A model generated the notes under the pieces. That model saw only the letters and a program-made list of their open reading frames with translations, was not told the DNA's origin and ran no database searches. A stretch of 64,000 bases of DNA, taken from contig JAZJZC010000004.1 in NCBI GenBank assembly GCA_040390045.1, positions 67,157 to 131,156 on the forward strand, written 5' to 3'. Shown here one piece after another: positions 3,662-44,382 of this stretch. Each line of letters opens with the position of its first letter. Position 1 is the stretch's first letter. The translations under genes and the position numbers were made by a program. The stretch is from Patescibacteria group bacterium (GTDB lineage Bacteria > Patescibacteriota > Minisyncoccia > Phycocordibacterales > SIBU01).

Positions 3662-4429
3662 ATGGCACCAGCGCATCACAACAAAATTTACATTTACGGC
3701 AAACACGCCTTAGCCGAAGCCTTGACGAACACTCCAAAGGTTATTGAAGAAATTTTCATGACTTCTACATTTGATGATTCTGCTATTCGAGCGCAGGTCA
3801 AAAAGCTTGGTCTCGCCACCTCAGTTTTGTTACCAAATAAATTACCAAAAGAAGTTGATTCACAAGCGGCTCACCAGGGAATTATTGGCGTGCTTTCTTT
3901 TGACAGACTGATCCAACCGTTCACACAATTTGCTGAAAATTTAAAAATTACTCCCGACACCTCGCTGATTCTTTTAGGTGAACTTTCCGACCCACAAAAT
4001 GTCGGCGCGGTGATTCGCAGTGCTGCCGCCTTTGGAATTTCTGCCGTTTTAATTCCTGAACACAATCAAGCTCAGATCACCGGTTCGGTGGTAAAAGTTT
4101 CGGCAGGAATGGTTTTCAGAATTCCGTTGGTCTCAGTGAGCAATGTTAATACCAGTTTACGTGAATTGAAGGATAGGGGATTTGCCGTGTACGGTCTTGA
4201 AGGTGGAGCAAAATACACTATGCCGAAGGAGGAATTTGAATTACCGACAATTTTTGTACTTGGCAACGAGTCAGAAGGCATTCGCGAAAAAACTCGCGAG
4301 CTCTGTGATAAATTAATTTCCATTCCCATTAGTCCAAATTGCGAATCATTGAACGCTGGTGTCTCCGCCGCCGTTGCATTTTACGCATGGAGCGCGAAAC
4401 ATCCGAAGGCTGTAAGATCAAGCAAATAA
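3662..4429 (+). CDS. TrmH/SpoU-family RNA 2'-O-methyltransferase (RlmB-like)
   Basis: IYGKHALAEAL N-terminal domain and SpoU motifs (DPQNVGAVIRSAAAFG, LGNESEGI). ATG at 3662 chosen; the 3569 extension is untypical. Confidence 0.75.
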   Translation: MAPAHHNKIYIYGKHALAEALTNTPKVIEEIFMTSTFDDSAIRAQVKKLGLATSVLLPNKLPKEVDSQAAHQGIIGVLSFDRLIQPFTQFAENLKITPDTSLILLGELSDPQNVGAVIRSAAAFGISAVLIPEHNQAQITGSVVKVSAGMVFRIPLVSVSNVNTSLRELKDRGFAVYGLEGGAKYTMPKEEFELPTIFVLGNESEGIREKTRELCDKLISIPISPNCESLNAGVSAAVAFYAWSAKHPKAVRSSK

Positions 4430-4469
4430 AAACCACACTTTGCAGTGTGGTGCGAATTCTTTTTCCTGC

Positions 4470-5828
4470 TCACTCGCATAGCACGAGGTCACTGGTTTCA
4501 GGTAATTCCGGCAACTTCCAACTCAAGGCCTGCTGGATAACTCTTTCCGCGCCAACCAAGGCACGTTCGCTGACGCGGTTGACCGGTTGCCAGGACCAGG
4601 TTTTGGGATGTTCAATGCTGTTGTGATCAAGCAAGGTCTTTCGAAGTGCCCAATTGGCCGCCGCTGCAAGCTCAATGCCTCGCATGAACTGGATGGCGCC
4701 ACCAAGCATTATCATCGATACATCCCAATGCTCCTGTTGGCTTCGGAAATTGCTAACCTTCCGAAACTCCGATTGTTCAAACTCCACGCTGAAGGTGGTT
4801 TCCGATGGCACGAGCGAAAGGTACTCCCGTATCGCAATATGCCCACCAAGCCAATCAACTTGTTTACCGTCAGCAATTGCCAGCGAGTTATGTTGAGTGG
4901 CTCCGGGCGCGGGCTGGTCGCCGTTCATTTTTGACCACCCGCTATCACCAGCGATTCTCTGGCCAAGGAAGCCACTCATGGCAATCAAGCCATCCTGCCG
5001 ACTGAGATCTTTTCCGTGAAAGCGACCAATAAACCATTCGTAACCGGCCATCTTGAGGACGAGAAATGACCACTCGGGCCGCATTCCCTGCAGGATGTCG
5101 TGGCTAGCGTCGTAGTTGAGGAAGCACCATCCTTTTAGTCCGGCCGCCTCGACCATACGCGCGATGATGATCCAGTGAAGCGGATTGTTCGCGATGTTTT
5201 GGGTGAAAACTTCCCGACTCGACCAGCCGCACATTGGGCAATTTTCAATGAAGAGTTTTACCCGGTGTGCCTTGGCGTATCGAACGAGCGGAATCAAAAC
5301 CCTCCCTGCCAGACGCATATTTTGCTCGATGGTCAGGTTAAGATCGCGTCCGATGAAAATCGTAACGCCCTTCGTACCAAGGCCAGCTTTTTTGAGTGCG
5401 CCGGCAGTGCGAATCGCTCGCCGAAGATGTTCGATATTTTGAAGGCGGTTTTCAAGATTAAGGTCGAGCAGGTTGTCGAATGCTCCGAGGCTGCCGATTT
5501 TAACCTTACCTTGCGCAGCGTCCTCAAGTCGCTTAATGTCATCCTTGAGAATCTCCTCGCCGCTTCCATCACGGAACGTTCGAATGGGAGTGTGTTTTGC
5601 AACCGGATCCGCCATGCTTTCAGGCGGGACATTGGCATCTGCTGGCGCAAGTGCACAACCGAGTTCCAAGACGGTAACTCCGGTTTTTCGCGCATGCACG
5701 AGGTGTTTGGTTGCCGCTATCATCGACGCCTTTCGTGGGTCGCGGATAAACATATCCGAGTTGGTACCCGGTGGTGTTTGAACACTGGCTGTAAAATAGC
5801 CGATGTCCAACATATCTAATGTTGTCAT
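4470..5828 (-). CDS. sugar phosphate isomerase/epimerase (xylose-isomerase-like TIM barrel) family protein
   Basis: TIM-barrel-like pattern (FIENCPM, NYDASHD). The track ORF begins with an alternative TTG. The first ATG is at 5826-5828 (MTTLDM). Confidence 0.45.
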   Translation of the reverse strand: MTTLDMLDIGYFTASVQTPPGTNSDMFIRDPRKASMIAATKHLVHARKTGVTVLELGCALAPADANVPPESMADPVAKHTPIRTFRDGSGEEILKDDIKRLEDAAQGKVKIGSLGAFDNLLDLNLENRLQNIEHLRRAIRTAGALKKAGLGTKGVTIFIGRDLNLTIEQNMRLAGRVLIPLVRYAKAHRVKLFIENCPMCGWSSREVFTQNIANNPLHWIIIARMVEAAGLKGWCFLNYDASHDILQGMRPEWSFLVLKMAGYEWFIGRFHGKDLSRQDGLIAMSGFLGQRIAGDSGWSKMNGDQPAPGATQHNSLAIADGKQVDWLGGHIAIREYLSLVPSETTFSVEFEQSEFRKVSNFRSQQEHWDVSMIMLGGAIQFMRGIELAAAANWALRKTLLDHNSIEHPKTWSWQPVNRVSERALVGAERVIQQALSWKLPELPETSDLVLCE

Positions 5829-5965
5829 AGATTTTATGTGTACTGGTGAATCCAAACGCTTCCATACCGACACTCGTCGGCTTGGCCGTTTAGGTTGTTG
5901 AGAGAATATCCCAATCGGGTTCAATACTACAAAGATAGGAGGAGTTGTCAATCTTAAAATTTAAT

Positions 5966-5997
5966 TAAAAAAACCGCCGACGCAAAGCGTTGGCGGG
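5966..5997 (-). terminator. terminator for purB
   Basis: Minus strand reads cccgccaacgctttgcgtcggcgg followed by a T-run. Confidence 0.65.
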
Positions 5998-6015
5998 ATT
6001 AGGTGATACGCTGCG

Positions 6016-7515
6016 TCAGCGGAACGAACGCGCTTTTGCAAGGACGTTATCGATTTGGATCGCTTCACCCCTGAGGTTATACGAGAAACTGAAAATTTCT
6101 TCCCATCGTGCCTTTGTGTTAGCCAGACAGAAAATTTTTCCAAGGGCCGAGTTCCAAGTATCAGTTTGGACGGTAGTAAACGCCAACTCTTCGGAAGGTC
6201 GCAGAATACATCTTGGAATATGATCCTGAATCGATGTTGTCGGGGTTCGCCACTTGGCGACATGAGCTGCCGCCTCCTGAGCCTCTGCGTAGGATGTACA
6301 CTCATTTGTGCGAATGAGTTTAGTCACGGCGTTTGGCTCCAACACACCAAAAGCCGCCAACTGGACAATGGAATAGCCAGCGCCTGGACTGAGGCCGCAT
6401 TCAAGGCCGACCTCTTCCAAAAAGTCTGCAACTTTGCTGGCGGCGTACACCCCCGCGCAGTCGAGAACTTCGCACAGCATCTGATCCGGATAGACCTGAA
6501 GATTTTCCAGCACTTTGGTCATTTGCGTCAGCGTGTGTGTGGTGACAAAAAACAAATCCGGCCAGGCCACGCGTTCGACGCAAGACTGCTCGATACCTCG
6601 TTCATGCCAGGTCTGGATGTTTTGTACAATCATCTGAACGTAACCTTCGGCCATGCGAAGCATGCCCCCCATTTGCTCGAGAGTGATCGTGTTGCGTTTG
6701 TGCGGCATACGAGAAGAACCGCGCTGACTTTTGCCAAATGGCTCACGCATCAGAGTCCTCCCACTTCGAGCGTTGAGACGGATGTCGGTGGCGATTTTTA
6801 CGATCGTCGCAACCAGTTGTCCAAGTGCGGAAGCAACCGGCGCGTAGACTTCGCGAGGAATGATTTGAGTAGCGCCGTAAAATGGCAGGAAACCCAAACT
6901 CGCGAGTGCCACTCTTTGAATCTCATCCGAAAGGTCGGGTGAGTTGCCTATAGCTCCGGAGAGCTTTGAGCGGTCGAGACCGCTTTTGGCGCGTTTCAAA
7001 TTCTCAACGCTAATCAAGATGGCCTTGAGCCACGTGGCGACACGTTTTCCAAAAGTCTGGAGTTCCGCCCACTGACCATGAGTTTCGCCAAGCATGACTG
7101 TGAAGCGATGGTGCTCAGCCTGCTTGATCAACACATCAATTAGAATGCCGGCCAACTTTTCAACTTCTCCGAGAGAAGCCAAAAGCATTTTGGCAAAGGC
7201 CGGTTCCTCAGTATCATAGGAAGTCATTTTTCCGTGAAAATACCGCTTTAGTGTCGAGTGTAAGTGCCGTTGTCTTTCCTCAACGAAGGCGATCAGATCG
7301 TGCCCGACTTCGGTATCTTTCTTTTTCCACCACTCAAGATCGATAGGAATACTCTCAAGCATTTGACGGATCGTCTCTGCTTCTTCGCGCAGAATTTCTC
7401 CGCAGGTTCCTCGAGCGTCGATCACTGCCAGTTCGGTTGCTTGCCAAAGCCGTAATTTGTTTTCATCCGTCCAGATTTCTTTTATAACAGGGTTTCGGGC
7501 GTATCGTGGGTGCAT
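6016..7515 (-). CDS. purB: adenylosuccinate lyase
   Basis: Fumarate-lyase signature GSSRMPHKRN. N-terminus ERY..IWTDENK matches PurB. Confidence 0.9.
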   Translation of the reverse strand: MHPRYARNPVIKEIWTDENKLRLWQATELAVIDARGTCGEILREEAETIRQMLESIPIDLEWWKKKDTEVGHDLIAFVEERQRHLHSTLKRYFHGKMTSYDTEEPAFAKMLLASLGEVEKLAGILIDVLIKQAEHHRFTVMLGETHGQWAELQTFGKRVATWLKAILISVENLKRAKSGLDRSKLSGAIGNSPDLSDEIQRVALASLGFLPFYGATQIIPREVYAPVASALGQLVATIVKIATDIRLNARSGRTLMREPFGKSQRGSSRMPHKRNTITLEQMGGMLRMAEGYVQMIVQNIQTWHERGIEQSCVERVAWPDLFFVTTHTLTQMTKVLENLQVYPDQMLCEVLDCAGVYAASKVADFLEEVGLECGLSPGAGYSIVQLAAFGVLEPNAVTKLIRTNECTSYAEAQEAAAHVAKWRTPTTSIQDHIPRCILRPSEELAFTTVQTDTWNSALGKIFCLANTKARWEEIFSFSYNLRGEAIQIDNVLAKARSFR

Positions 7516-31442: not shown

Positions 31443-31517
31443 ATTATCTTCAAATTTTCTTTGACATTCTTTCTGGTCTTGATATTATTTTGATAGTTCA
31501 CACAAGAAAGGATTGCT

Positions 31518-31715
31518 ATGCAAACCGCAGTAGTTGGCTGTTGTGACGATTGTCACCACTCTGTCAGTTTCCTGGTAACCGTTGGGTGGAAATTGTGCCA
31601 CCAAAATGAATTGGCGCCAATGATCTGTCTCAAATGCACTCACGATCGACAAAGGGAGAAAAATTCTTCCAATAGGCCGGTCGGAAGCCCGCACGAGACT
31701 ACCTTGCTCGCTTGA
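31518..31715 (+). CDS. small Cys/His-rich hypothetical protein (65 aa)
   Basis: AAAGGA SD 5 nt before ATG. Contains 6 Cys and 5 His (CCDDCHH..C..C..C.H). Could be spurious. Confidence 0.25.
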   Translation: MQTAVVGCCDDCHHSVSFLVTVGWKLCHQNELAPMICLKCTHDRQREKNSSNRPVGSPHETTLLA

Positions 31716-31812
31716 TTTCTCGAAAGATTTATATGGGTACCTGAATAAGGCGCCCTTTTCTTTCTCTTTCTTACCTGAAACCTTAGCTTTTGTTATACAC
31801 ATCCTCAGCTTG

Positions 31813-31841
31813 TTGACAAGGAAGTCCCTATAGTCTATACT
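31813..31841 (+). promoter_or_regulatory. near-consensus sigma70 promoter about 340 nt upstream of rpoB
   Basis: TTGACA-17-TATACT. Confidence 0.5.
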
Positions 31842-32179
31842 TCCGCCTATCTTCGCAAGATTGTGTTACGGGGGAAATTGAAGGGATTGCAAGGTTTATT
31901 GGTCCTTAATAAAATTCCAGATTTGGCACACTTCTTCGTTGCTCGCTCCGTTTGCTCCCGCGCAGTAGTTTACTACAGCTTGGTCGCAATACTCGCGAGC
32001 GCCTCGAATTGTATCCAAATCATGAAATTTTATAACCGCATTTTTCTTGCTTAATCTAACTAAATAACCAAAAATTTTTGGCTGCCTCTCATCCGAGGGA
32101 GTTTTTTGTCTGTATTTTTAAAAGTAAAGTTTAATAGATAAGGGGTGGGGAGATTATTAAAAGCTTTTTTATAAAAATT

Positions 32180-35467: not shown

Positions 35468-38400
35468 ATGATAAAATCAAAAACCATTGGAAATTTAAAC
35501 ACTTTCGAGAGCATCGGCCTCAAAATTGCCTCTCCCGAGAGAATCAAGGAGTGGTCCTACGGCGAAATCACCAAGCCGGAAACCATTAACTATCGAACAC
35601 AGAGAAGTGAAAAATCTGGGCTATTCGACGAGAAAATTTTCGGCCCAGATCGAGATTACGAATGTTACTGTGGAAAATACCGCGGTATTCGCTATAAAGG
35701 AATTGTCTGTGAAAAATGTGGAGTGGAAATCACTCGCTCAATTGTTCGACGTGAACGAATGGGTCACATTGATCTCGCAACCCCAGTTTCTCACATCTGG
35801 TTTCTCCGAAGTATGCCATCTCGCTTGGGATTAATTCTTGGAATGGCAACGGGAGATTTGGAAAAAGTTATTTACTTCGCCGGTTACATCGTCACCAAGA
35901 TTTTTGAAGACGACCGCGCGCAAATTCTCAAAGATCTCGACGCCGAATACAAATCAAAAGTTAAATCTCTTCAAGACGAGAAATCTAAAGACGCCATTAA
36001 AGAGAAATGTGTCGCTGCTAAAAAAGAAATTGAGAGTGTTCAAGAGGGAACTGTGCTTGATGAAGTGGCCTACCACAACTTCTCCATGAAATACGGCACC
36101 CTTTTCGAAGCTTCAATTGGAGCCGAAGCCGTGTACAGTTTGTGCAAAAATATTGACCTCAAAAAACTTGAGAATAAACTTGAACAGGATTTTCAAGAAG
36201 CCAGCTCGCTCGAAAAAGATAAGATCAACAAACGATTGAGCCTCGTTCGCTCAATGATCAACTCAAACATTCGCCCAGAATGGATGTTTTTGACGCGAAT
36301 TCCTGTTATTCCACCAGCACTTCGACCAATGGTTCCATTAGACGGAGGCCGATATGCTACGTCAGATGTGAACGATTTGTACCGCCGCGTCATCAACCGC
36401 AACAATCGTTTGAAGAAATTGAAAGAAATCAATGCGCCGGATGTTATTTTGCGTAACGAAAAAAGAATTCTTCAGGAAGCCGTTGACTCACTTATTGATA
36501 ACTCAATTCGACACGGCAACACTCCTTCAGGTGCCTTGAATCAATCACAGCGCCGACCGTTAAAATCCCTTTCTGACAACCTTAAAGGTAAACGAGGTCT
36601 TTTCCGACAAAACCTTTTGGGTAAACGCGTTGACTACTCAGCTCGATCGGTTATCGTTGTCGGTCCTGAACTCAAACTCGACCAGTGTGGTTTGCCAAAA
36701 CACATGGCTCTTGAACTTTTCCGACCATTCGTTATCGGCGAACTTCTACGACGCGAATTAGCATTCAACATCCGCGGAGCCGGACGCCTTATCGACGAAG
36801 ATGTTCCGGAAGTTTGGGCTATTCTTGAAGAAATCACCAAAGATAAATACGTTCTTCTAAACCGCGCGCCTACGTTGCACCGATTGGGTATTCAAGCTTT
36901 CCGACCTGTACTTATCGAAGGTAACGCTATTCATGTCCACCCACTCGTTTGTACCGCCTTCAACGCTGACTTCGACGGAGACCAGATGGCTGTCCACCTT
37001 CCGCTTGGAGTTGAGGCTCAGCTCGAGGCCAAGGAAATCATGGCATCTGACAAAAACATTTTGAAACCTGGAAACGGCGATCCGATTGTTTCTGCAAAAA
37101 TGCTCGATATTGTTCTCGGTTGTTACTGGATGACCAAGATTATTCCAGGAGCTACAGGAGAAGGGAAATACTTCTCAAGTCCAAATGCCGCTATCACCGC
37201 GTTCAACTTCGACGCAGTGGAATTCCGCGCAAAGGTGAAAGTCATGGGAACCAGCAACCTCAAGTACAAGGAATTTGAAGGAGGGTTATTTGAAACATCT
37301 GTTGGACGATTGCTCTTCAATAGTGTGCTTCCATCTGACTACCCATACATCAACCAAGATATCGAACGAAAGAAAATGGCATGGCTCGTTGATGATCTCA
37401 TCAACCGCTACGGCATCAAAAATATTCCACCGATCATGGATAAGATAAAGTCCTTCGGTTTCAAATACGCAACCTACTCTGGCGTTACCTGGGGAATTGA
37501 CGATGTCAAAATTCCAGAAAAGAAACCTGAAGTGATTGACGCCGCTAAGAAAAAATCCGACCTCGTACTCAATCAATACAACGAAGGTTTGCTTTCAAAA
37601 GAAGAAAAACTTCGAAAAAATATTGAAATTTGGCACGGTGCTAAAAATGAAATTGAAAAATTAATCCCAGCAACACTTCCAGTAAACGGTTCAGTTCACG
37701 ACATGGTGTTCTCTGGTGCTCGAGGTTCATTTTCACAGATTACTCAGATGGCCGGTATGAAAGGTTTGATTCAAAACACTGCCGGAGAAACTATCGAATT
37801 TCCAATTCTTTCTTCAATGAAAGAAGGTTTGACTCCAATTGAATACTTCATTACCACTCACGGTTCTCGAAAAGGTTTGACTGACACGGCGCTCAACACT
37901 GCCAAAGCCGGATACCTCACTCGAAAATTGTTCGTCGCCGCGCAAGATACGATTGTTACGGAAGAAGATTGTGGAACCAAAGACACCCTAACCATCAAAC
38001 GAGTTGGCGCTCTTGGTGGAGATCCTACATTGGCGAAACACATCAAAGGACGAGTTCTCGGCGCTGACGCCATTGGCAAAAATGGCGAAGTTATTCTCAA
38101 GAAAGGAACCTTGTTGTCAAAAATTGACGCTTTGAAAATCCAGGATGAAGGGGCACTCGAAGCTAAAGTTCGATCACCACTGACCTGTAAATCAATCCAC
38201 GGCGTTTGCATCAAATGTTACGGTGTTGATCTCGGTAAATTTGAATCGGTGGGAATTGGCGAAGCAGTAGGAACCGTTGCCGCTCAAGCTATCGGTGAAC
38301 CAGGAACTCAGCTCACCATGCGTACTTTCCACGCCGGAGGAACCGCGTCTGTCGGAGGAGACATTACGCAAGGTTTGCCTCGCGTTGAAGAACTCTTCGA

Positions 38401-39145
38401 AAAACGAGCTCCAAAAAATCCAGCCGTTGTTTCTCGTGTAGATGGAGTTGTTACAGAAATTCGTGACATGGGTAAGGAAAAAATCATCATCGTTGTTCCC
38501 GACATTGCAGATAAATCAAAGACCAAGAAAAAGGCTGAGATTGAATACACGATGGGTTATGCTCGAATTTCATTTGTAAAGGTAGGAGATACGATTAAAA
38601 AGGGTGACGTTATTACCGACGGTTCAGTTGATATTGATGAACTCTTCAAATACGCTGGTCATGAAAAAACTGAAGACTACATCATCGCCGAAGTTACCAA
38701 GCCTTACGAGCTCCAAGGAGAAACTGTTTCTCGAAAACACATTGAAGTGATCGTCCGACAGATGTTCAGCCGACGAAAAGTTCTTGATGGTGGAGGCACT
38801 GCGCTTTCAACTGGAGAAATGATTGATCTCTACCAACTTCATCTAGAAAACGAAAAAGCTAAGGAAGCCGGACTTGAGGAAGCCAAGGTTGAACCAGTGA
38901 TCATGGGAATTTCAGAGGTATCACTTTCACGCAAAAGCTTCCTTTCAGCCGCTTCCTTCCAACACACCACTCGCGTACTTATCAATGCCGCTATTCGCGG
39001 TAACGAAGACAAACTACTCGGTCTCATGGAAAACGTTATTATCGGACGCTTGATCCCAGCTGGAACTGGAGTTGTTGGTGGAGCAAAAGCTAATCTCATT
39101 AAAGAAAAGAGAGCAGAAAAAGAAGCTGAAGCCGCTCGAAGCTAG
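35468..39145 (+). CDS. rpoC: DNA-directed RNA polymerase subunit beta'
   Basis: 1225 aa; NADFDGDQM catalytic motif and zinc-binding Cys. Confidence 0.95.
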   Translation: MIKSKTIGNLNTFESIGLKIASPERIKEWSYGEITKPETINYRTQRSEKSGLFDEKIFGPDRDYECYCGKYRGIRYKGIVCEKCGVEITRSIVRRERMGHIDLATPVSHIWFLRSMPSRLGLILGMATGDLEKVIYFAGYIVTKIFEDDRAQILKDLDAEYKSKVKSLQDEKSKDAIKEKCVAAKKEIESVQEGTVLDEVAYHNFSMKYGTLFEASIGAEAVYSLCKNIDLKKLENKLEQDFQEASSLEKDKINKRLSLVRSMINSNIRPEWMFLTRIPVIPPALRPMVPLDGGRYATSDVNDLYRRVINRNNRLKKLKEINAPDVILRNEKRILQEAVDSLIDNSIRHGNTPSGALNQSQRRPLKSLSDNLKGKRGLFRQNLLGKRVDYSARSVIVVGPELKLDQCGLPKHMALELFRPFVIGELLRRELAFNIRGAGRLIDEDVPEVWAILEEITKDKYVLLNRAPTLHRLGIQAFRPVLIEGNAIHVHPLVCTAFNADFDGDQMAVHLPLGVEAQLEAKEIMASDKNILKPGNGDPIVSAKMLDIVLGCYWMTKIIPGATGEGKYFSSPNAAITAFNFDAVEFRAKVKVMGTSNLKYKEFEGGLFETSVGRLLFNSVLPSDYPYINQDIERKKMAWLVDDLINRYGIKNIPPIMDKIKSFGFKYATYSGVTWGIDDVKIPEKKPEVIDAAKKKSDLVLNQYNEGLLSKEEKLRKNIEIWHGAKNEIEKLIPATLPVNGSVHDMVFSGARGSFSQITQMAGMKGLIQNTAGETIEFPILSSMKEGLTPIEYFITTHGSRKGLTDTALNTAKAGYLTRKLFVAAQDTIVTEEDCGTKDTLTIKRVGALGGDPTLAKHIKGRVLGADAIGKNGEVILKKGTLLSKIDALKIQDEGALEAKVRSPLTCKSIHGVCIKCYGVDLGKFESVGIGEAVGTVAAQAIGEPGTQLTMRTFHAGGTASVGGDITQGLPRVEELFEKRAPKNPAVVSRVDGVVTEIRDMGKEKIIIVVPDIADKSKTKKKAEIEYTMGYARISFVKVGDTIKKGDVITDGSVDIDELFKYAGHEKTEDYIIAEVTKPYELQGETVSRKHIEVIVRQMFSRRKVLDGGGTALSTGEMIDLYQLHLENEKAKEAGLEEAKVEPVIMGISEVSLSRKSFLSAASFQHTTRVLINAAIRGNEDKLLGLMENVIIGRLIPAGTGVVGGAKANLIKEKRAEKEAEAARS

Positions 39146-39154
39146 TTTTTCCGA

Positions 39155-39204
39155 TTGACGTCACAGAAACACTTGTATATACTTCTGTATATACAAGTGT
39201 TTCT
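39155..39204 (+). promoter_or_regulatory. promoter TTGACG-17-TATACT embedded in perfect 40-bp palindrome (candidate MazE/MazF operator)
   Basis: Arms agaaacacttgtatatac / gtatatacaagtgtttct at 39165-39204. ATG of antitoxin at 39215. Confidence 0.6.
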
Positions 39205-39214
39205 AGTAATTAAC

Positions 39215-39457
39215 ATGACAACGAAAATTCAAAAGTGGGGAAATAGTCTCGCTGTTCGCCTACCAAAAGAGGCGGCGGAAAACGCTGGTCTAAAACAAGG
39301 CTCAGTTGTATCTATCGTATCGAATGATGATTTGATTTCTATTAAACCGCTTTCGAAACCGAAAGAGACCCTTTCGCAACTTGTACGGAAAATTAGCGCC
39401 AAAAACAGACACGAGGAAATTGACTGGGGTAAAATGAAAGGCAAAGAAGTATGGTAA
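39215..39457 (+). CDS. mazE: MazE/AbrB-type antitoxin
   Basis: SpoVT/AbrB swapped-hairpin motif KWGNSLAVRLPKE. Confidence 0.75.
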   Translation: MTTKIQKWGNSLAVRLPKEAAENAGLKQGSVVSIVSNDDLISIKPLSKPKETLSQLVRKISAKNRHEEIDWGKMKGKEVW

Positions 39458-39792
39458 GACAAGCCTATATTCCCAATAGGGGCGACATCGTATGGATGAG
39501 CTTCGATCCTTCGTTTGGACATGAACAAGCAGGGAGAAGGCCGGCGTTAGTTGTATCGCCAAGGGTGTATAATAAAAAAACCAGCATGGCGATTTGTTGC
39601 CCAATTACGAGGTCAATCAAAGGTTACTCGTTTGAAGTTGAAATTTTGGTTGATGGTGTACAGAGTGTTGCACTAGCAGATCAAATCCGCGCACTCGATT
39701 GGTCAAAAAGAAAGTGCCAGTTCATAGGCAAGGTCTCTGAAGCGCAATTATCTGAGTTACAAAGCAAAATTAGTGAATTGATACAAGGATAA
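39451..39792 (+). CDS. mazF: MazF/PemK-family endoribonuclease toxin
   Basis: PNRGDIVWMSFDPSFGHEQAGRRPALVVS..PITRS. Overlaps mazE by 7 nt. Confidence 0.8.
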   Translation: MVRQAYIPNRGDIVWMSFDPSFGHEQAGRRPALVVSPRVYNKKTSMAICCPITRSIKGYSFEVEILVDGVQSVALADQIRALDWSKRKCQFIGKVSEAQLSELQSKISELIQG

Positions 39793-39794
39793 CT

Positions 39795-41561
39795 ATGTCA
39801 GGAAACGTAGATCAAATAAAAGAAAGGCTTAGCATAGTTGATGTTGTCGGTTCCTATGTTAAGCTCGAAAAAGCAGGTAGCAACTACAAAGCTCGGTGTC
39901 CATTTCATAATGAAAAGACGCCGTCCTTTTTCGTGTCGCCAGATAGAAATTCCTTTTACTGCTTCGGCTGCCAAGTGAAAGGTGATATTTTTTCCTTTGT
40001 CGAACAATTTGAAGGGTTGGATTTTGTCGGAGCACTAAAGGTTCTAGCTCAAAAAGCTGGAGTGACACTGGAACGAGAAAATCCTAAAGCTAAGAGCGAA
40101 AAAGACAGACTGTACTCAGTACTCGATGCTGCAACTAGCTTTTTCGAAAAATCATTGAGTTTGGATTCTGAGGCAAAAGAATATTTGGCCAAGAGGGGAG
40201 TAAAACCTGAAACTATTAAAGATTGGCGATTAGGTTTTGCGCCCGACTCTTGGAGGGCGCTGTACGATGATCTTACTGCCAAAGGCTTTACTACCGGAGA
40301 GATGATTTCTGCAGGACTTGTTAAGAAATCGGAGAAAGGTTTCTTCGATTTTTTCCGTGGCCGAATTATGTTTCCGATTTTTGACAGCTCAGAAAGAGTT
40401 ATCGGATTTTCCGGCAGAATTCTATCGCGACTTGATGACGGAAAAACTGGCAAATACGTCAATAGCCCTGAAACAATCCTGTTCAACAAGTCGCGAGTTC
40501 TGTACGGCTTGCACAAAGCGAAATACGACATTCGAAAACGTGATTATTCAATCATGGTGGAAGGCCAAATGGATCTGGTACTCTCACACCAGGCCGGCTT
40601 CAGCAACACTGTTGCCGTCTCAGGTACCGCACTTTCGCAAGACATTTTAAGTGATAATGGAGTGACTAATCTCGGACTGCTAACACGACTTTCAAAAAAC
40701 ATTATTCTTTCGTTCGATTCTGACGAGGCGGGTTTTAAGGCGTCCGCACGAAACGCTAAAACCGCGTTAATGCTTGGGATGGATGTAAAAGTTGCAAAGC
40801 TGCCACAGGGCGAGGATCCTGCTGATATTATCTTGAGAAATCCTGCCGAGTGGGCGGAAATTATTAAAAATTCCAAACACGTCATTGATTTTTCTCTCGA
40901 AACTCTGCTTGAGAAAAAACTTGAACCGCGAAAATTGGGTGTTGAGATTCAAAAACTCATACTGCCATACGTAAAATCGCTTCAAAGTGCTATCGATCAG
41001 TCACACTTTATAACAAAAATTTCCGCATTGGCTGGAATAAAAGAGGACGCGCTATGGGCTGAGTTTAAGAAAATTGAAGTGGAACCAGCGATTGAAACTT
41101 TGCAGTTTAAAACCTCCGAAACCGCTGAACCCAAAAAAGCCAACCGAAAAAATAATATCGAGAAAAAAGTTTTAGGGATTCTAGTCTGGCAAGAAGCCAA
41201 AAAGAGCGATCAGAAAATTAATGTTTCCGAACTTCGAAAAAACTTGGTAGCAATCTTAGGCAACGAACAGTTTAACCTTTTAGAAACCGCAAACAAAAAC
41301 AACCTTAATGATTTAATTTTTGAAGCCGAGCTGTCCTACGATAACTCCTTAAATCTCAAGCACACAATCGCAGAACTTTTACTTAATCTTGAAGAAGAAG
41401 TCATTGATCAAAAGTTGGCAGAAGCTATGAGCCTGTTGTATTCGAAGGAAAATAAAACCCATAGCGTGCATATGACCTCCGTTGACACTCTGTCACGAAG
41501 AAAGCAGGAATTACGTCTACTTAGAAGTAAATTGACCACAGAAAGTAGCAATAAATTATGA
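39795..41561 (+). CDS. dnaG: DNA primase
   Basis: Zinc-binding CPFHNEKTPSF...CFGC motif and a TOPRIM core. Confidence 0.9.
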   Translation: MSGNVDQIKERLSIVDVVGSYVKLEKAGSNYKARCPFHNEKTPSFFVSPDRNSFYCFGCQVKGDIFSFVEQFEGLDFVGALKVLAQKAGVTLERENPKAKSEKDRLYSVLDAATSFFEKSLSLDSEAKEYLAKRGVKPETIKDWRLGFAPDSWRALYDDLTAKGFTTGEMISAGLVKKSEKGFFDFFRGRIMFPIFDSSERVIGFSGRILSRLDDGKTGKYVNSPETILFNKSRVLYGLHKAKYDIRKRDYSIMVEGQMDLVLSHQAGFSNTVAVSGTALSQDILSDNGVTNLGLLTRLSKNIILSFDSDEAGFKASARNAKTALMLGMDVKVAKLPQGEDPADIILRNPAEWAEIIKNSKHVIDFSLETLLEKKLEPRKLGVEIQKLILPYVKSLQSAIDQSHFITKISALAGIKEDALWAEFKKIEVEPAIETLQFKTSETAEPKKANRKNNIEKKVLGILVWQEAKKSDQKINVSELRKNLVAILGNEQFNLLETANKNNLNDLIFEAELSYDNSLNLKHTIAELLLNLEEEVIDQKLAEAMSLLYSKENKTHSVHMTSVDTLSRRKQELRLLRSKLTTESSNKL

Positions 41562-41638
41562 GGTAGTTTTATAAAGAAAACCCTTGATAACCCTGCTAAA
41601 TAGTGTTAAAGTGCCTTCAAATAAACCTAAATTTTGAT

Positions 41639-42862
41639 ATGAAAAAAACCAAAAGCAAAAAGTCTAAAATCGTAAAAAAGCCAGTTTCCAAGGCAAAAAC
41701 CTCTAAGAAGTCCAAAGCTCAAAAGGCTCCTAAAAAGAAGCTAAAATCAAAAGCCAAGGCTCCAAAAGCCTTCGTTTCCAAGAAAGACAAGGAAATGAAT
41801 GACAAAGCGCAGAAACTTTTCCTCAAGGGTAAGGATCGCGGTTTCGTCACTCACGATGAAATCCTCAAAGAATTTCCTCACATCGAGGACGATATTTTTT
41901 TCCTGGATCAACTCTATGCCAAACTTCACGATGGTGGAATTGACATCCTAGAAAGTGGTGGAATGCTCGACCTCGGTGATGAGGTTGCGACAAAGAAAAA
42001 TGTTTACGAAGGACGCGCATCAGAGTCTTCCTACGACTCGATCCAGATGTATCTGAAAGAAATTGGTCAGTACCCTTTGATTTACGCACAAGAGGAAAAA
42101 GATTTAGCCAAGAGAATTCAGACTGGCGATGAAGAAGCAAAAAATCTTTTGGCTCGTGCCAACCTCAGACTCGTGGTTTCAATTGCCAAAAAATACGTCG
42201 GTCGCTCGCCCGACCTCACCCTTCTCGACCTCATTCAAGAAGGTAACCTCGGTCTTTTCAAAGCAGTCGATAAATTCGATTGGACCAAAGGTTTCAAATT
42301 TTCAACCTACGCCACCTGGTGGATCCGCCAGGCTATTACTCGCGCCTTGGCAGACCAATCTCGCACCATTCGCGTCCCAGTACACATGGTAGAAACTATT
42401 GCTAAATACAAACAAGTCGTCCGCCGACTTTCTCAAGACCTAGGCCGCGATCCGTTACCTGAAGAAATTGCCGTTGAAATGGGACTTGATGTTGAGAAAG
42501 TTTATAATATTGAAAAAATTGATCAGGATACTGTATCACTCGAAAGCCCAGTAGGGGACGAAGGTGATGATGGTAAATCAACTCTCGGGGATTTTATCGC
42601 TGATGACAAAATTCTTTCACCTGACCACGAATCATCTCGCCGCATTCTTTCCGATCAAGTCAAAGAAATTCTCAACGATCTTTCAGAAAAAGAACGACGA
42701 ATTTTGGAAATGCGTCATGGACTAAATGACGGCGTCACTCACACCCTCGAAGAAGTCGGTCAAAAATTCGGCGTCACACGCGAGCGTATCCGCCAAATTG
42801 AAGCTAAAGCTCACGAAAAAATAAGACAACACGATAAGGCTAAAAGACTCGAAAATTACTAA
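41639..42862 (+). CDS. rpoD: RNA polymerase sigma-70 factor RpoD with Lys-rich N-terminal extension
   Basis: Regions 2-4 present ([23 protein letters not shown]). ATG at 41639 preferred over GTG at 41603. Confidence 0.88.
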
Positions 42863-42866
42863 TTTT

Positions 42867-42900
42867 AAAACCGCCCCCGATGAACATCGCGGGCGGTTTT
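42867..42900 (+). terminator. rho-independent terminator after rpoD
   Basis: aaaaccgcccccgatgaacatcgcgggcggtttt. Confidence 0.75.
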
Positions 42901-42969
42901 GTATAAAGAAAAAACCCAATATCCGGAGATATTGGGTGCCTCGTTAAGTCGAGACTGACAGTGATACTG

Positions 42970-44382
42970 CTACTCAGTGGTGGCAGGCGGAACCGGAGTT
43001 CCCCGAAGCCAGTCGAAAAGGTTGCCCTCATCAAAAGCGGCAATAAGGTTGACCGCAACCTTCTTCAGATGATTTCCCAAATCCCTGCCTGCCCAGTTGG
43101 TGTTGTAATCGTAGGCAATGGGTTTATGGAAAATGTGCCAGTAGGGCCGATCGATGGCATTAAAACCCACTAGCCCTCCTTGATTAGCGCGGAGAAATGC
43201 AATCGTGTCCGCGACCATTTCATTGAACAATGGGAATGTCCCGGAATCCGAGAACCTTCCGATCACAAACATGTACGGGATTCCTTTTTTGAATCCTACA
43301 ACGTACGGATCAATTGATCGCAACCAGTTGGTGTTCTTCCAGTCGCCGCCAGCGACGTCATGATAAGGGGTCATTATCACGAGATAATCAAAAAGGCCAC
43401 GTGCCTCCCGAATTCGCCGCGAGATGGCTGGGGGAATCTGATCTCCTCCGTAGTGGCGAAGGGTCCGCGTGCGACGGTTGTACATCTGAAAAAAGTCCGC
43501 CCAGTTTTGATTGGGAAACAAGTTGCAGAAATACTTAGTCGATGAATGGACCTTCGGGTCCGGAACTTCCCAGATTTGATCCGCTTCGCGTGTCCCAGCC
43601 TCATCTGCCCAAAAATACCAAACTGGCACAGCGGTGAACAGGTCAGGTAGGTACTGGATCGGCAAGATCGTATCTCGCCGAACGAGATTCTCAGTGATCA
43701 TGAATCGAAGAGTCTCGCGAAACGATTTGAACCGGGCCACTTCGGCTCGGAGCGAATTGTTCTGCACATCCATGCCGAGCTCACTCTGGTTTTTAATGGC
43801 TTCATCAACTCCGGCATCAAGGGCGGTATCGTCCTCAGCCAGGCTAAATGTTGAGCCGAACTGGGCCAGCGCTGGGAACAGGTGCTCCAGGAAGAGCCGC
43901 ATCAGTTCGCCAACATTTTCCGGCACCGACGAGTCCCGAGGGACTTCCGATGCGGGTTGATTGGCAACCACCTGTGCGATCACCTCCGGCGGAATAGTTT
44001 TCACGCCCATGGCTTTCTGCCGAGCCGTCGGTTGTACCTCATTTGTAGCGAGTGCTCCTCCAGCGAATGGCGCCAGAGCAACAAAGCCCGGGATCGCTTG
44101 CGTGCCGGCGGGGATGAGCTCAATCTCAATGGTTTCAACAGCCCCGATGGCACGGTAGTACCCCGTTCCACGTTTCGGATCATTGGCCACATTAAACGAA
44201 ACCACCATACCCACGCGAGGTGGAGAGGAGCAGTCATCCTTATGCAGGAAGATGTCCGCGATGGTTTCGATGTTGTGTGGCCCACCATGGCTCATTGCCA
44301 CGGTCCTGATACCGATGAACGCGTATCCGTCATTACCCGGGACACTCACTACCCGGCCAGTGTATTTTCCAGCAGTTTGCAT
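42970..44382 (-). CDS. uncharacterized protein: N-terminal cold-shock/OB-like domain fused to large unknown C-terminal domain
   Basis: N-terminus GRVVSVPGNDGYAFIGI...DIFLHKDD resembles a CSD. C-terminal roughly 380 aa unrecognised, with possible HD-like H...HD...H.H.D spacing (RHYGG, YHDVAGG, WHIFHK). GC far above window average. SD-like AAAGG 7-10 nt upstream. Confidence 0.6.
   Translation of the reverse strand: MQTAGKYTGRVVSVPGNDGYAFIGIRTVAMSHGGPHNIETIADIFLHKDDCSSPPRVGMVVSFNVANDPKRGTGYYRAIGAVETIEIELIPAGTQAIPGFVALAPFAGGALATNEVQPTARQKAMGVKTIPPEVIAQVVANQPASEVPRDSSVPENVGELMRLFLEHLFPALAQFGSTFSLAEDDTALDAGVDEAIKNQSELGMDVQNNSLRAEVARFKSFRETLRFMITENLVRRDTILPIQYLPDLFTAVPVWYFWADEAGTREADQIWEVPDPKVHSSTKYFCNLFPNQNWADFFQMYNRRTRTLRHYGGDQIPPAISRRIREARGLFDYLVIMTPYHDVAGGDWKNTNWLRSIDPYVVGFKKGIPYMFVIGRFSDSGTFPLFNEMVADTIAFLRANQGGLVGFNAIDRPYWHIFHKPIAYDYNTNWAGRDLGNHLKKVAVNLIAAFDEGNLFDWLRGTPVPPATTE

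What the first reader, a model, noticed from the sequence alone, without database searches (positions are those of the whole stretch)
39155..39792. mazEF-type toxin-antitoxin pair inserted between rpoC and dnaG behind a perfect 40-bp palindromic promoter-operator
The genes are an AbrB/MazE-fold antitoxin and a MazF/PemK toxin that overlap by 7 nt. A perfect 18+18-bp palindrome (39165-39204) contains the TATACT -10 and abuts a TTGACG -35. This is the classic architecture of a TA promoter autoregulated by the antitoxin-toxin complex. The module sits inside the otherwise conserved rpoBC-dnaG-rpoD neighbourhood. The palindrome also replaces an obvious rpoC terminator.
Basis: partly seen in the sequence, partly recalled or inferred. 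Interest (0 to 1): 0.55.

Follow-up and report, generated by a model that had tools for sequence, protein, structure and literature searches.

The report
MazEF toxin-antitoxin operon before primase gene
This is an ordinary E. coli-type MazE/MazF toxin-antitoxin gene pair with a promoter it probably represses itself, wedged between the RNA-polymerase and primase genes of an uncultured Patescibacteria genome; related genomes show it has been inherited there for a long time, joined to the primase gene.

Summary
There is a perfect 18+18-bp inverted repeat (39165-39204). A TTGACG-17-TATACT promoter-like site overlaps it. mazE (39215-39457) and mazF (39451-39792) overlap by 7 nt, and dnaG starts 2 nt after the mazF stop.

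Both proteins are clear E. coli-type MazE/MazF. MazF passes NCBIfam's MazF equivalog cut-off and keeps the catalytic Arg and Thr.

Seventeen related genomes have rpoB-rpoC-dnaG-rpoD without the module. At least six other lineages carry mazEF joined to dnaG by the same 2-nt junction. In those lineages dN/dS is about 0.1 for both genes, so this is an old, vertically inherited insertion.

The conserved operator is not the whole 40-bp palindrome. It is two copies of the self-complementary 8-mer GTATATAC, 12 bp apart, overlapping the -10. In 127 fetched loci this twin box occurs only just upstream of mazE homologues, in any genomic context. It resembles E. coli MazE site 'a'.

The outer 8 bp of each arm are unique to this genome and unexplained. 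The hairpin lacks a U-tract, so it is not a canonical terminator.

Verdict: a new member of a known kind. NCBI already names the toxin. The conserved linkage to dnaG is the only mildly unusual aspect.

The parts
35468..39145 (+). rpoC (RNA polymerase beta'), the upstream neighbour; its stop codon lies 9 nt before the -35 hexamer
   Evidence: ORF list; 60-87% identical to RpoC of related loci
39155..39160 (+). -35 hexamer TTGACG of the mazEF promoter
   Evidence: TTGAC is invariant in 8 aligned lineages and present in 4 further loci
39178..39183 (+). -10 hexamer TATACT, inside MazE box 1
   Evidence: invariant in alignment A1; the E. coli mazEF operator site 'a' contains the same TATACT
39175..39182 (.). 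MazE box 1: self-complementary 8-mer GTATATAC (inferred binding site for one MazE dimer)
   Evidence: Only two copies in 64 kb; invariant in relatives; 8 of 10 positions match E. coli site 'a' GATATATACT
39187..39194 (.). MazE box 2: second GTATATAC, 12 bp centre-to-centre from box 1, over the expected transcription start
39165..39204 (.). Full 18+18-bp perfect inverted repeat with centre TTCT. The outer 8 bp per arm (39165-72 AGAAACAC and 39197-204 GTGTTTCT) are specific to this genome
   Evidence: RNA hairpin -25.7 kcal/mol, z = -8.4, against -10.5 to -14.1 in relatives. Outer arms are not conserved
39215..39457 (+). mazE antitoxin, 80 aa: AbrB/SpoVT-type N-terminal DNA-binding domain and C-terminal MazF-binding tail (IDWGKMKGKEVW)
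   Evidence: Pfam PF04014 2.8e-12; PDB 7d2n_E 5e-18 and E. coli MazE 5e-13; alignment A3
39451..39792 (+). mazF endoribonuclease toxin, 113 aa; overlaps mazE by 7 nt (ATGGTAA)
   Evidence: Pfam PF02452 3e-28; NCBIfam NF007386 equivalog 139 bits, cut-off 120; PDB E. coli MazF 1e-27; R30, T53 and E25 invariant; NCBI record MES2088157.1
39795..41561 (+). dnaG primase. Its ATG lies 2 nt after the mazF stop (TAACTATG), and an SD-like AAGGA sits in the last mazF codons. Inferred to be co-transcribed with and translationally coupled to mazF
   Evidence: the TAA-N-T-ATG junction is conserved in 7 lineages; no other strong, positionally conserved promoter lies between PmazE and dnaG
41603..42862 (+). 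rpoD primary sigma factor (the likely true start is ATG 41639); weak promoter-like sites at 41532 and 41584
42866..42903 (+). Canonical intrinsic terminator (AAAACCGCCCCCG...CGGGCGGTTTTGT) ending the rpoB-...-rpoD gene string
   Evidence: -21.8 kcal/mol, z = -5.2

Best explanation
This is a functional chromosomal type II toxin-antitoxin operon of the E. coli MazEF subfamily.

Shown by homology: MazF is a sequence-specific endoribonuclease, and MazE neutralises it through its C-terminal tail.

Inferred from sequence: a sigma-70-type promoter (TTGACG-17-TATACT) drives mazE-mazF. Two copies of the self-complementary box GTATATAC lie 12 bp apart, one over the -10 and one over the start site. They are the operator, where MazE dimers bind and shut the promoter off. 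Binding is probably strengthened by MazF bridging the dimers, as in E. coli.

Shown by synteny: the cassette (promoter, operator and two genes, about 640 bp) entered the rpoC-dnaG gap of the ancestral rpoB-rpoC-dnaG-rpoD string in the ancestor of a small Patescibacteria clade. It has since been inherited vertically under purifying selection.

Inferred: dnaG begins 2 nt after mazF with no terminator or strong promoter in between. So dnaG, and probably rpoD, is transcribed from the mazEF promoter as well as by read-through from rpoBC, and is translationally coupled to mazF.

Not explained by MazE binding: the outer 8 bp of each palindrome arm are a peculiarity of this genome. Most likely they strengthen an RNA stem-loop at the end of rpoC read-through transcripts, or they are a neutral 'perfected palindrome'.
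For: Proteins:
- Pfam hits for both.
- NCBIfam MazF equivalog passed.
- 46% identity to E. coli MazF, with R30, T53 and E25 invariant in 12 homologues.
- MazE keeps WGNSxAVR (including the equivalent of the E. coli DNA-contact Arg16) and the C-terminal DWG...E.W toxin-binding motif.

Selection: dN/dS is 0.05-0.17 for both genes in pairs where dS is not saturated. Lengths (80 and 113 aa) and the ATGGTAA overlap are identical in all intact lineages.

Operator:
- TTGAC, TGTATATACTT and GTATATACA are invariant in 8 lineages, while spacers, flanks and neighbouring synonymous sites are scrambled.
- The same twin box is found upstream of more distant mazE genes (40-68% identity) in unrelated contexts.
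- It occurs 15 times in 127 loci, all upstream of mazE.
- There are only two GTATATAC in the 64-kb window.
- E. coli MazE site 'a' TTGATATATACTGT, shown to bind MazE with MazF enhancing binding (PMC4333400), shares TATATACT including the -10.

Insertion and inheritance:
- 17 relatives without the module have rpoC next to dnaG.
- 7 lineages have the mazF-TAA-N-T-ATG-dnaG junction.
- Pairwise TA identity tracks DnaG identity only loosely (r = 0.49).

Operon end: a canonical terminator occurs only after rpoD.
Against: - Nothing was tested biochemically. MazE binding, promoter activity, the transcription start, toxicity and cleavage specificity are all inferred.
- MazE scores below the NCBIfam MazE equivalog cut-off (51.9 against 113).
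- There is no recognisable Shine-Dalgarno sequence before mazE.
- The box spacing (12 bp) and number (2) differ from the E. coli three-site 'cab' operator.
- If the toxin cuts ACA like its two characterised relatives, its own operon is not protected. ACA is not depleted in mazE, mazF, dnaG or rpoD (z = +1.3, +1.3, +0.5, -0.5).
- Co-transcription of dnaG rests only on the 2-nt gap and the absence of signals. A weak coding-constrained promoter-like site 54 nt before dnaG exists in some relatives.
- One lineage (L091) has lost mazF, so the toxin is dispensable there.
Confidence: 0.85

Rival explanations
1. The palindrome is mainly an RNA element: a terminator, insulator or 3'-end stabiliser hairpin for rpoBC transcripts. 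On this reading its overlap with a promoter-like sequence is incidental.
For: The window's hairpin is very stable (-25.7 kcal/mol, z = -8.4). It begins 20 nt after the rpoC stop. No other terminator-like site lies between rpoC and mazE. The outer 8-bp extension does not resemble a MazE box and exists only in the one lineage where rpoC abuts the promoter. Some relatives have a separate hairpin without a T-run upstream of the -35 (L088, L131, L005).
Against: No U-tract follows (AGUAAUUAAC), whereas this genome and its relatives use canonical hairpin-plus-T-run terminators. The conserved part is the AT-rich inner boxes, which fold weakly in relatives (-10.5 to -14 kcal/mol). Those boxes travel with mazEF into contexts with different upstream genes. 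Several relatives without the module have only 5-11 nt between rpoC and dnaG, so no terminator is needed there. This rival can therefore hold only as an added role for the outer arms, not as the explanation of the conserved core.
Confidence: 0.15
2. The module has been domesticated as a regulatory cassette. The MazE/MazEF-controlled promoter is the physiological promoter of dnaG (and rpoD), so primase and sigma-factor supply follows the toxin:antitoxin ratio. This is analogous to S. aureus, where the mazEF promoter feeds the sigB operon.
For: The 2-nt mazF-dnaG junction is conserved in 7 lineages. It persists in L125, where neither rpoC nor rpoD is adjacent. PmazE is the only strong, positionally conserved promoter-like site upstream of dnaG. 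In L091, where mazF is a pseudogene, a 150-nt insert with a TGTTATAAT promoter-like sequence has appeared in front of dnaG. There is precedent in S. aureus: mazEF is transcriptionally linked to the sigB operon and needed for full sigma-B activity (PMC3920265).
Against: The same cassette is wedged equally tightly (4-9 nt) in front of unrelated genes elsewhere: 6PGD and DUF5674. Tight packing may therefore just reflect compact Patescibacteria genomes. Relatives without the module express dnaG by rpoC read-through or from small promoters. ACA is not depleted in dnaG or rpoD. There are no expression data.
Confidence: 0.25
3. It is a selfish addiction cassette, or an anti-phage abortive-infection module, that happens to sit in a permissive gap. 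It has no relation to its neighbours and may be on its way to decay.
For: Close homologues (62-70% identity) with the same promoter and operator lie in at least four other contexts, so the cassette moves. The rpoC-dnaG gap is a hot spot that holds other variable genes in relatives (L005, L126, L023, L045). One lineage carries a broken mazF.
Against: dN/dS of about 0.1 for both genes across lineages whose synonymous sites are near saturation argues for long-term function, not decay. The position next to dnaG is retained through DnaG divergence to 68-86% identity. There are no PADLOC hits. No transposase, integrase or flanking repeats lie at the site.
Confidence: 0.15
4. The palindrome is a chance or generic repeat (for example a dispersed REP-like element) unrelated to the TA genes.
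For: The exact 22-nt twin-box pattern occurs twice in IMG/VR viral contigs with no mazEF nearby.
Against: It is unique in the window, with 0.01 matches expected for one arm. Only two GTATATAC occur in 64 kb. There are 15 occurrences in 127 loci, all just upstream of mazE, and none in the 80 dnaG loci from the genome scan, none of which carries mazEF.
Confidence: 0.02

Closest known systems
Escherichia coli MazE-MazF (chpA locus, downstream of relA)
   Same: Same gene order, with the antitoxin first and overlapping the toxin. MazF is 46% identical and MazE 41%. The catalytic Arg and Thr and the C-terminal Trp-rich MazE tail are kept. The module sits about 70 nt downstream of a large housekeeping gene with no terminator in between (relA in E. 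coli, rpoC here). The operator overlaps the -10 TATACT and is built from the same kind of half-site: E. coli site 'a' GATATATAC and site 'b' GTATCTAC, against GTATATAC here.
   Different: E. coli has three MazE sites ('c', 'a', 'b'; the 'alternating palindrome') over 47 bp. Here there are two identical perfect 8-mers 12 bp apart. E. coli mazEF is followed by mazG, here by dnaG-rpoD with a 2-nt junction. MazE here scores below NCBIfam's MazE equivalog cut-off.
PDB 7d2n/7d28 MazE-MazF complex, and Deinococcus radiodurans MazEF-dr
   Same: 7d2n_E is the closest solved MazE (5e-18, same 80-aa length). The 7d28 and 7dhp MazF chains score about as well as E. coli MazF (3e-27 to 5e-27). MazF-dr, like E. 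coli MazF, cuts RNA at ACA (PMC5526972). That makes ACA the default guess for this toxin.
   Different: The source organism of those PDB chains was not shown by the tool; linking them to D. radiodurans rests on my memory. Cleavage specificity here is untested, and residues around the substrate loop differ (ITRSIK against CTTQSK).
Staphylococcus aureus mazEF-rsbUVW-sigB operon (and, from my own knowledge, B. subtilis ndoAI-ndoA upstream of the sigB operon)
   Same: A mazEF pair lies directly upstream of, and is transcriptionally linked to, a sigma-factor operon. In S. aureus the mazEF promoter contributes to sigma-factor expression (PMC3920265).
   Different: The S. aureus pair belongs to a more distant MazF branch (PDB 4mzm, E = 2e-4 to the window's MazF). 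It is not autoregulated by MazE. It precedes an alternative sigma factor, with a weak terminator in between. Here the downstream genes are primase and the primary sigma factor, there is no terminator, and the operator looks like a classical autoregulatory one.
Kis-Kid (parD of plasmid R1) / PemI-PemK
   Same: Same Pfam families. The Kid toxin matches at 5e-12. The promoter-operator is palindromic and regulated by toxin:antitoxin stoichiometry (as cited in PMC4333400).
   Different: It is plasmid-borne and a more distant homologue. The operator sequences are unrelated.

Membership tests
MazF/PemK endoribonuclease toxins (E. coli MazF subfamily) | Sequence membership: Pfam PemK_toxin domain and the NCBIfam 'endoribonuclease MazF' equivalog model above its curated cut-off | tested here: met
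   PF02452 98.6 bits (cut-off 23.1). NF007386 139 bits (cut-off 120).
MazF/PemK endoribonuclease toxins (E. coli MazF subfamily) | Catalytic residues equivalent to E. coli MazF Arg29 and Thr52 (their roles are from my own knowledge of the MazF literature), plus Glu24 | tested here: met
   R30, T53 and E25 align with them and are invariant in 12 homologues.
MazF/PemK endoribonuclease toxins (E. coli MazF subfamily) | Sequence-specific, ribosome-independent RNA cleavage, and growth arrest relieved by the antitoxin | not testable with these tools
   Needs expression and cleavage assays. Characterised relatives cut ACA.
MazE antitoxins (AbrB/SpoVT swapped-hairpin fold) | N-terminal AbrB/MazE/SpoVT DNA-binding domain | tested here: met
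   PF04014 46.8 bits (cut-off 24.7). WGNSxAVR is invariant, including the equivalent of E. coli DNA-contact Arg16.
MazE antitoxins (AbrB/SpoVT swapped-hairpin fold) | C-terminal disordered tail that binds MazF (E. coli ...IDWGEPKDKEVW) | tested here: met
   The window has EIDWGKMKGKEVW. W71, G72, E78 and W80 are invariant in 10 homologues.
MazE antitoxins (AbrB/SpoVT swapped-hairpin fold) | NCBIfam 'antitoxin MazE' equivalog model above its cut-off | tested here: not met
   NF007312 is the best hit but scores 51.9 bits against a cut-off of 113. The protein is a MazE-family member by domain and partner, but not an 'equivalog' by NCBI's strict score.
Type II toxin-antitoxin operon with autoregulated promoter-operator | Antitoxin-first bicistron with overlapping or abutting genes | tested here: met
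   The 7-nt overlap ATGGTAA is conserved in all lineages.
Type II toxin-antitoxin operon with autoregulated promoter-operator | Palindromic operator overlapping the promoter's core elements and co-inherited with the antitoxin | tested here: met
   Two GTATATAC boxes lie over the -10 and the start region. They are invariant across lineages and contexts and are found only upstream of mazE.
Type II toxin-antitoxin operon with autoregulated promoter-operator | Antitoxin (with or without toxin) binds the operator and represses transcription; conditional cooperativity | not testable with these tools
   Needs EMSA, footprinting or reporter assays. Shown for E. coli MazE site 'a'.
Intrinsic (Rho-independent) terminator | G+C-rich stem-loop followed directly by a U-tract | tested here: not met
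   The stem is AT-rich in its core. The tail is AGUAAUUAAC, and the terminator scan does not call it. A canonical example exists after rpoD.

The most novel reading that the evidence does not exclude
In this Patescibacteria clade the mazEF cassette has been co-opted as the conditional promoter module of the primase/primary-sigma genes (mazE-mazF-dnaG-rpoD as one autoregulated transcription unit). Replication-priming and transcription-initiation capacity would then be set by the MazE:MazF ratio. The genome-specific 18-bp arms would add an RNA hairpin that insulates this unit from rpoBC read-through.
Probability: 0.2. Interest if true: 0.55.

Novelty: new member of a known kind. Interest (0 to 1): 0.3.

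Why it matters
As a gene pair it is routine. NCBI's pipeline already names the toxin 'endoribonuclease MazF' (MES2088157.1).

Three points go beyond the annotation:
1. The operator for this MazE subfamily is defined comparatively: twin GTATATAC boxes, related to E. coli site 'a'. This gives a ready-made EMSA or reporter target.
2. A mobile TA cassette can become fixed for a long evolutionary time inside one of the most conserved gene strings of a reduced genome, joined by 2 nt to an essential gene.
3. The clade offers a natural comparison set: intact module, dead-toxin variant (L091), relatives without the module, and the same cassette in other contexts. That set could be used to ask whether chromosomal TA promoters are recruited to drive neighbouring essential genes, as in the S. 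aureus mazEF-sigB case.

None of this overturns current understanding.

Tried and rejected
- ACA depletion. I tested whether the operon protects itself or dnaG/rpoD from an ACA-specific MazF, resampling codons from window-wide usage for 53 ORFs. There is no depletion (mazE +1.3, mazF +1.3, dnaG +0.5, rpoD -0.5 sd). The idea is dropped.
- Rfam. With gathering thresholds the whole window gives only two tRNAs. A permissive scan of 39100-39850 gives only meaningless sub-threshold miRNA-hairpin matches to the palindrome.
- PADLOC defence models: no hits for either protein.
- Exact-sequence look-up of the window's own MazF and its 98-aa variant in the contig index found nothing. The source record was identified through cluster membership instead.
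- Internal dnaG promoter. A scan of mazE-mazF in six lineages found no strong conserved site.
- Vertical inheritance from correlated distances. The TA against DnaG identity correlation is only moderate (r = 0.49, n = 15), so I rely on the conserved junction instead.
- Viral-contig scan for the twin box. It gave two hits with no TA genes. I treated them as background, not as evidence for a generic repeat.
- Literature searches for mazEF linked to dnaG/rpoD, or for MazF in Patescibacteria, found nothing relevant. This is absence in that library only.
- I did not run structure prediction. Sequence matches to solved MazE/MazF structures were already decisive.
Full report
**1. What is in the sequence**

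Reading 38900-40100 and the repeat finder confirm the inverted repeat. Its arms are 39165-39182 (AGAAACACTTGTATATAC) and 39187-39204 (GTATATACAAGTGTTTCT), perfectly complementary, around a 4-nt centre TTCT. With up to three mismatches allowed, the arm matches nothing else in the 64-kb window (0.01 expected).

The promoter scan gives TTGACG (39155), 17 nt, TATACT (39178-83). This matches 10 of 12 and is the best site in 38500-42000. Such consensus hits are no more frequent there than in shuffles, so the site alone proves nothing.

rpoC ends at 39145. The mechanical ORF 39155-39457 starts at a TTG inside the -35 hexamer. The biological mazE start is ATG 39215 (80 aa), as every homologue shows. 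mazF runs 39451-39792 and overlaps mazE by 7 nt (ATGGTAA). dnaG starts at 39795, two bases after the mazF stop, and rpoD follows. A textbook hairpin-plus-T-run terminator sits right after rpoD at about 42866-42903.

**2. The proteins**

Pfam gives MazE_antitoxin (2.8e-12) and PemK_toxin (3e-28).

Against solved structures, MazF matches E. coli MazF at 1e-27 over its whole length. MazE matches 7d2n_E at 5e-18 and E. coli MazE at 5e-13.

MazF exceeds NCBIfam's curated cut-off for the 'endoribonuclease MazF' equivalog (139 against 120 bits). MazE has the MazE equivalog as its best hit but stays below its cut-off (51.9 against 113).

In a 12-sequence alignment that includes E. coli MazF, the equivalents of E. 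coli Glu24, Arg29 and Thr52 (E25, R30, T53) are invariant. In MazE, the WGNSxAVR DNA-binding strand and the C-terminal DWG...E.W toxin-binding tail are invariant. The WGNSxAVR strand contains the equivalent of Arg16, which PMC4333400 names as a DNA contact.

NCBI already carries this protein as MES2088157.1, 'endoribonuclease MazF [Patescibacteria group bacterium]', on a 137,955-bp contig.

**3. Synteny**

A genome-collection scan with the window's DnaG returned 80 loci. tblastn of the window's six proteins against them shows 17 Patescibacteria (Paceibacteria-type) genomes with rpoB-rpoC-dnaG-rpoD and no mazEF.

In 14 of these the rpoC-dnaG gap is 5 to about 120 nt. Some gaps hold a canonical terminator (L008, L022). 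Others are too short for any signal (L017, L018, L021). L023 and L045 carry unrelated inserts of 0.8 and 4.7 kb. So rpoC next to dnaG is the ancestral arrangement, and the gap is a recurrent insertion site.

**4. The module is shared by a clade**

I combined a protein search, contig look-ups and a metagenome scan, analysed. These give seven lineages in which mazEF is followed by dnaG with the same junction (TAA, one variable base, T, ATG):
- the window
- L005/L006 (Candidatus Taylorbacteria)
- L087
- L088
- L090
- L125
- L126

Across these lineages MazF is 70-78% identical to the window's, DnaG 68-86% and RpoC 80-87%.

What lies upstream of mazE varies:
- rpoC directly: the window only
- rpoC plus one or two unknown ORFs: L005, L126
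- a spacer of about 290 nt: L091
- unrelated genes: L125

In L125 neither rpoC nor rpoD is adjacent, yet mazEF-dnaG stays together.

In L091 the mazF catalytic loop is replaced and the frame is broken, leaving a 28-aa stub. There mazE and the operator are intact, and a 150-nt insert with a TGTTATAAT promoter-like sequence separates the remnant from dnaG.

Pairwise Nei-Gojobori estimates give dN/dS of 0.05-0.17 for both genes wherever dS is not saturated. This indicates long-term purifying selection on toxin and antitoxin alike.

**5. The operator**

I aligned the 125 nt upstream of mazE from eight lineages (A1). TTGAC, TGTATATACTT and GTATATACA are invariant, while everything between and around them varies.

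GTATATAC is its own reverse complement. The conserved element is therefore two palindromic 8-mers, 12 bp centre to centre. The first contains the -10 TATACT. The second lies over the expected start site.

The same pair, 11-12 bp apart and behind a TTGACA, precedes more distant mazE genes (40-68% identity) in quite different neighbourhoods: between PEP-utilizer and 6PGD genes, before DUF5674, before flavokinase, and after EamA.

Every occurrence is immediately upstream of a mazE homologue. It never occurs in the 80 dnaG loci from the genome scan, none of which carries mazEF. The window contains just these two GTATATAC. This disposes of the 'generic repeat' refutation.

The E. coli K-12 mazEF upstream region reads ...GTATCTACAATGTAGATTGATATATACTGTATCTACATATGATAGC.... 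PMC4333400 defines sites c, a and b in it. It shows MazE binding to site 'a' (TTGATATATACTGT) through its N-terminal domain, with MazF enhancing binding near 1:1 and relieving it in excess. The window's box 1 (TTGTATATACTTCT) shares TATATACT with site 'a', including the -10.

The inference that MazE, with or without MazF, represses this promoter through the two boxes is thus well grounded. It remains an inference.

**6. The outer arms and the terminator idea**

Only the window extends the palindrome from 10 to 18 bp per arm. The extra AGAAACAC/GTGTTTCT is not conserved. It raises the stability of the RNA hairpin from between -10.5 and -14.1 kcal/mol in relatives to -25.7 kcal/mol.

Eight further perfectly complementary pairs are unlikely by chance (about 4^-8). 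The window is also the only lineage in which rpoC abuts the promoter.

No U-tract follows, while canonical terminators are used after rpoD here and after rpoC in relatives. So this is not an 'obvious' terminator.

A transcript started at PmazE (about 39190) would contain only the right arm. Only rpoC read-through RNA could form the hairpin.

I can offer two readings: a 3'-end stabiliser or partial insulator, or a neutral template-switch 'perfection' of a pre-existing palindrome. I cannot decide between them.

**7. How dnaG and rpoD are expressed**

Between PmazE and dnaG there is no terminator-like site on the + strand and no strong, positionally conserved promoter. The last mazF codons (…CAA GGA TAA) provide an SD-like AAGGA in front of the dnaG ATG.

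The simplest reading is one gene string, rpoB-rpoC-mazE-mazF-dnaG-rpoD, ending at the rpoD terminator, with PmazE as an internal, self-repressed promoter.

Whether PmazE matters for dnaG/rpoD is open. It would resemble S. aureus, where the mazEF promoter feeds the sigB operon (PMC3920265). The same cassette is packed just as tightly against unrelated genes elsewhere. ACA sites are not depleted in dnaG or rpoD.

**8. Verdict**

The operator is the inner twin box, not the whole 40 bp. The terminator remark is unsupported.

The system is a new member of a well-known kind, and the toxin is already named in GenBank. The conserved fusion to dnaG in a clade of reduced genomes, the dead-toxin variant and the genome-specific long hairpin are modestly interesting leads, not surprises.

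Literature searches for a mazEF-dnaG/rpoD link, or for MazF in Patescibacteria, found nothing relevant in the held library.

Noticed in passing
window 31443-32179: A 740-nt stretch with no convincing ORF lies between a cyclophilin-like gene and rpoB. It has two near-consensus promoter-like sites (TTGACA-16-TATTAT with TG at 31461-88; TTGACA-17-TATACT at 31813-41) and a hairpin plus T-run at 32086-32107. There is no Rfam match even at E<=1. rplJ and rplL are not upstream of rpoB here. It may be an unannotated RNA or a long regulated leader.
   Followed up: partly
window 42970-44382 (- strand): A 470-aa ORF convergent with rpoD has about 52% G+C against about 43% around it. It has no Pfam, NCBIfam or PADLOC hit. 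In the Taylorbacteria relative this slot holds an Amidase_3 gene on the other strand, so this is another variable spot, possibly foreign DNA.
   Followed up: partly
L091 5001-5480 (metagenome contig Ga0075978_107): In a close relative (RpoC 87%) mazF is a pseudogene. The catalytic-loop codons GHEQAGRRP are replaced and the frame is broken, leaving a 28-aa stub. mazE and the twin-box operator are intact. A 150-nt insert with a TGTTATAAT promoter-like sequence now separates the remnant from dnaG.
   Followed up: partly
L125 2625-5214: mazE-mazF-dnaG stay together with the 2-nt junction, although rpoC is not within 2.6 kb upstream. The 270 nt after dnaG are non-coding and full of long inverted repeats, instead of leading into rpoD.
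   Followed up: partly
L001-L004 and L089 (5765-6346 in L001); L130; L131; L133/L134: The same cassette (62-70% MazF identity, identical promoter and twin box) is wedged with 4-9-nt gaps into other gene strings: PEP-utilizer | mazEF | 6-phosphogluconate dehydrogenase, and PEP-utilizer | mazEF | DUF5674. In the EamA | mazEF and mazEF | flavokinase loci the downstream gap is about 120-190 nt. The cassette seems to insert, or be retained, directly in front of a gene start in some contexts.
   Followed up: partly
L128 11550-11571; L129 1925-1946 (IMG/VR viral contigs): The exact twin-box sequence TGTATATACTTTTGTATATACA occurs twice in the viral collection with no MazE or MazF detectable nearby. 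One copy lies between a terminator-like hairpin and a tRNA gene.
   Followed up: partly
L088 about 148-172; L131 about 470-511; L005 1826-1890: Several relatives carry a separate strong hairpin without a T-run upstream of the mazEF -35 (for example CGGCACCAA...TTGGTGCCG and CCCTACACTAAC...GTTAGTGTAGGG). This may be the counterpart of the window's extended palindrome arms.
   Followed up: no
window 4001-7000: A block of raised G+C (50-52% against about 42-44% elsewhere) covers two long minus-strand ORFs (4470-5951 and 6016-7515). I did not examine it.
   Followed up: no
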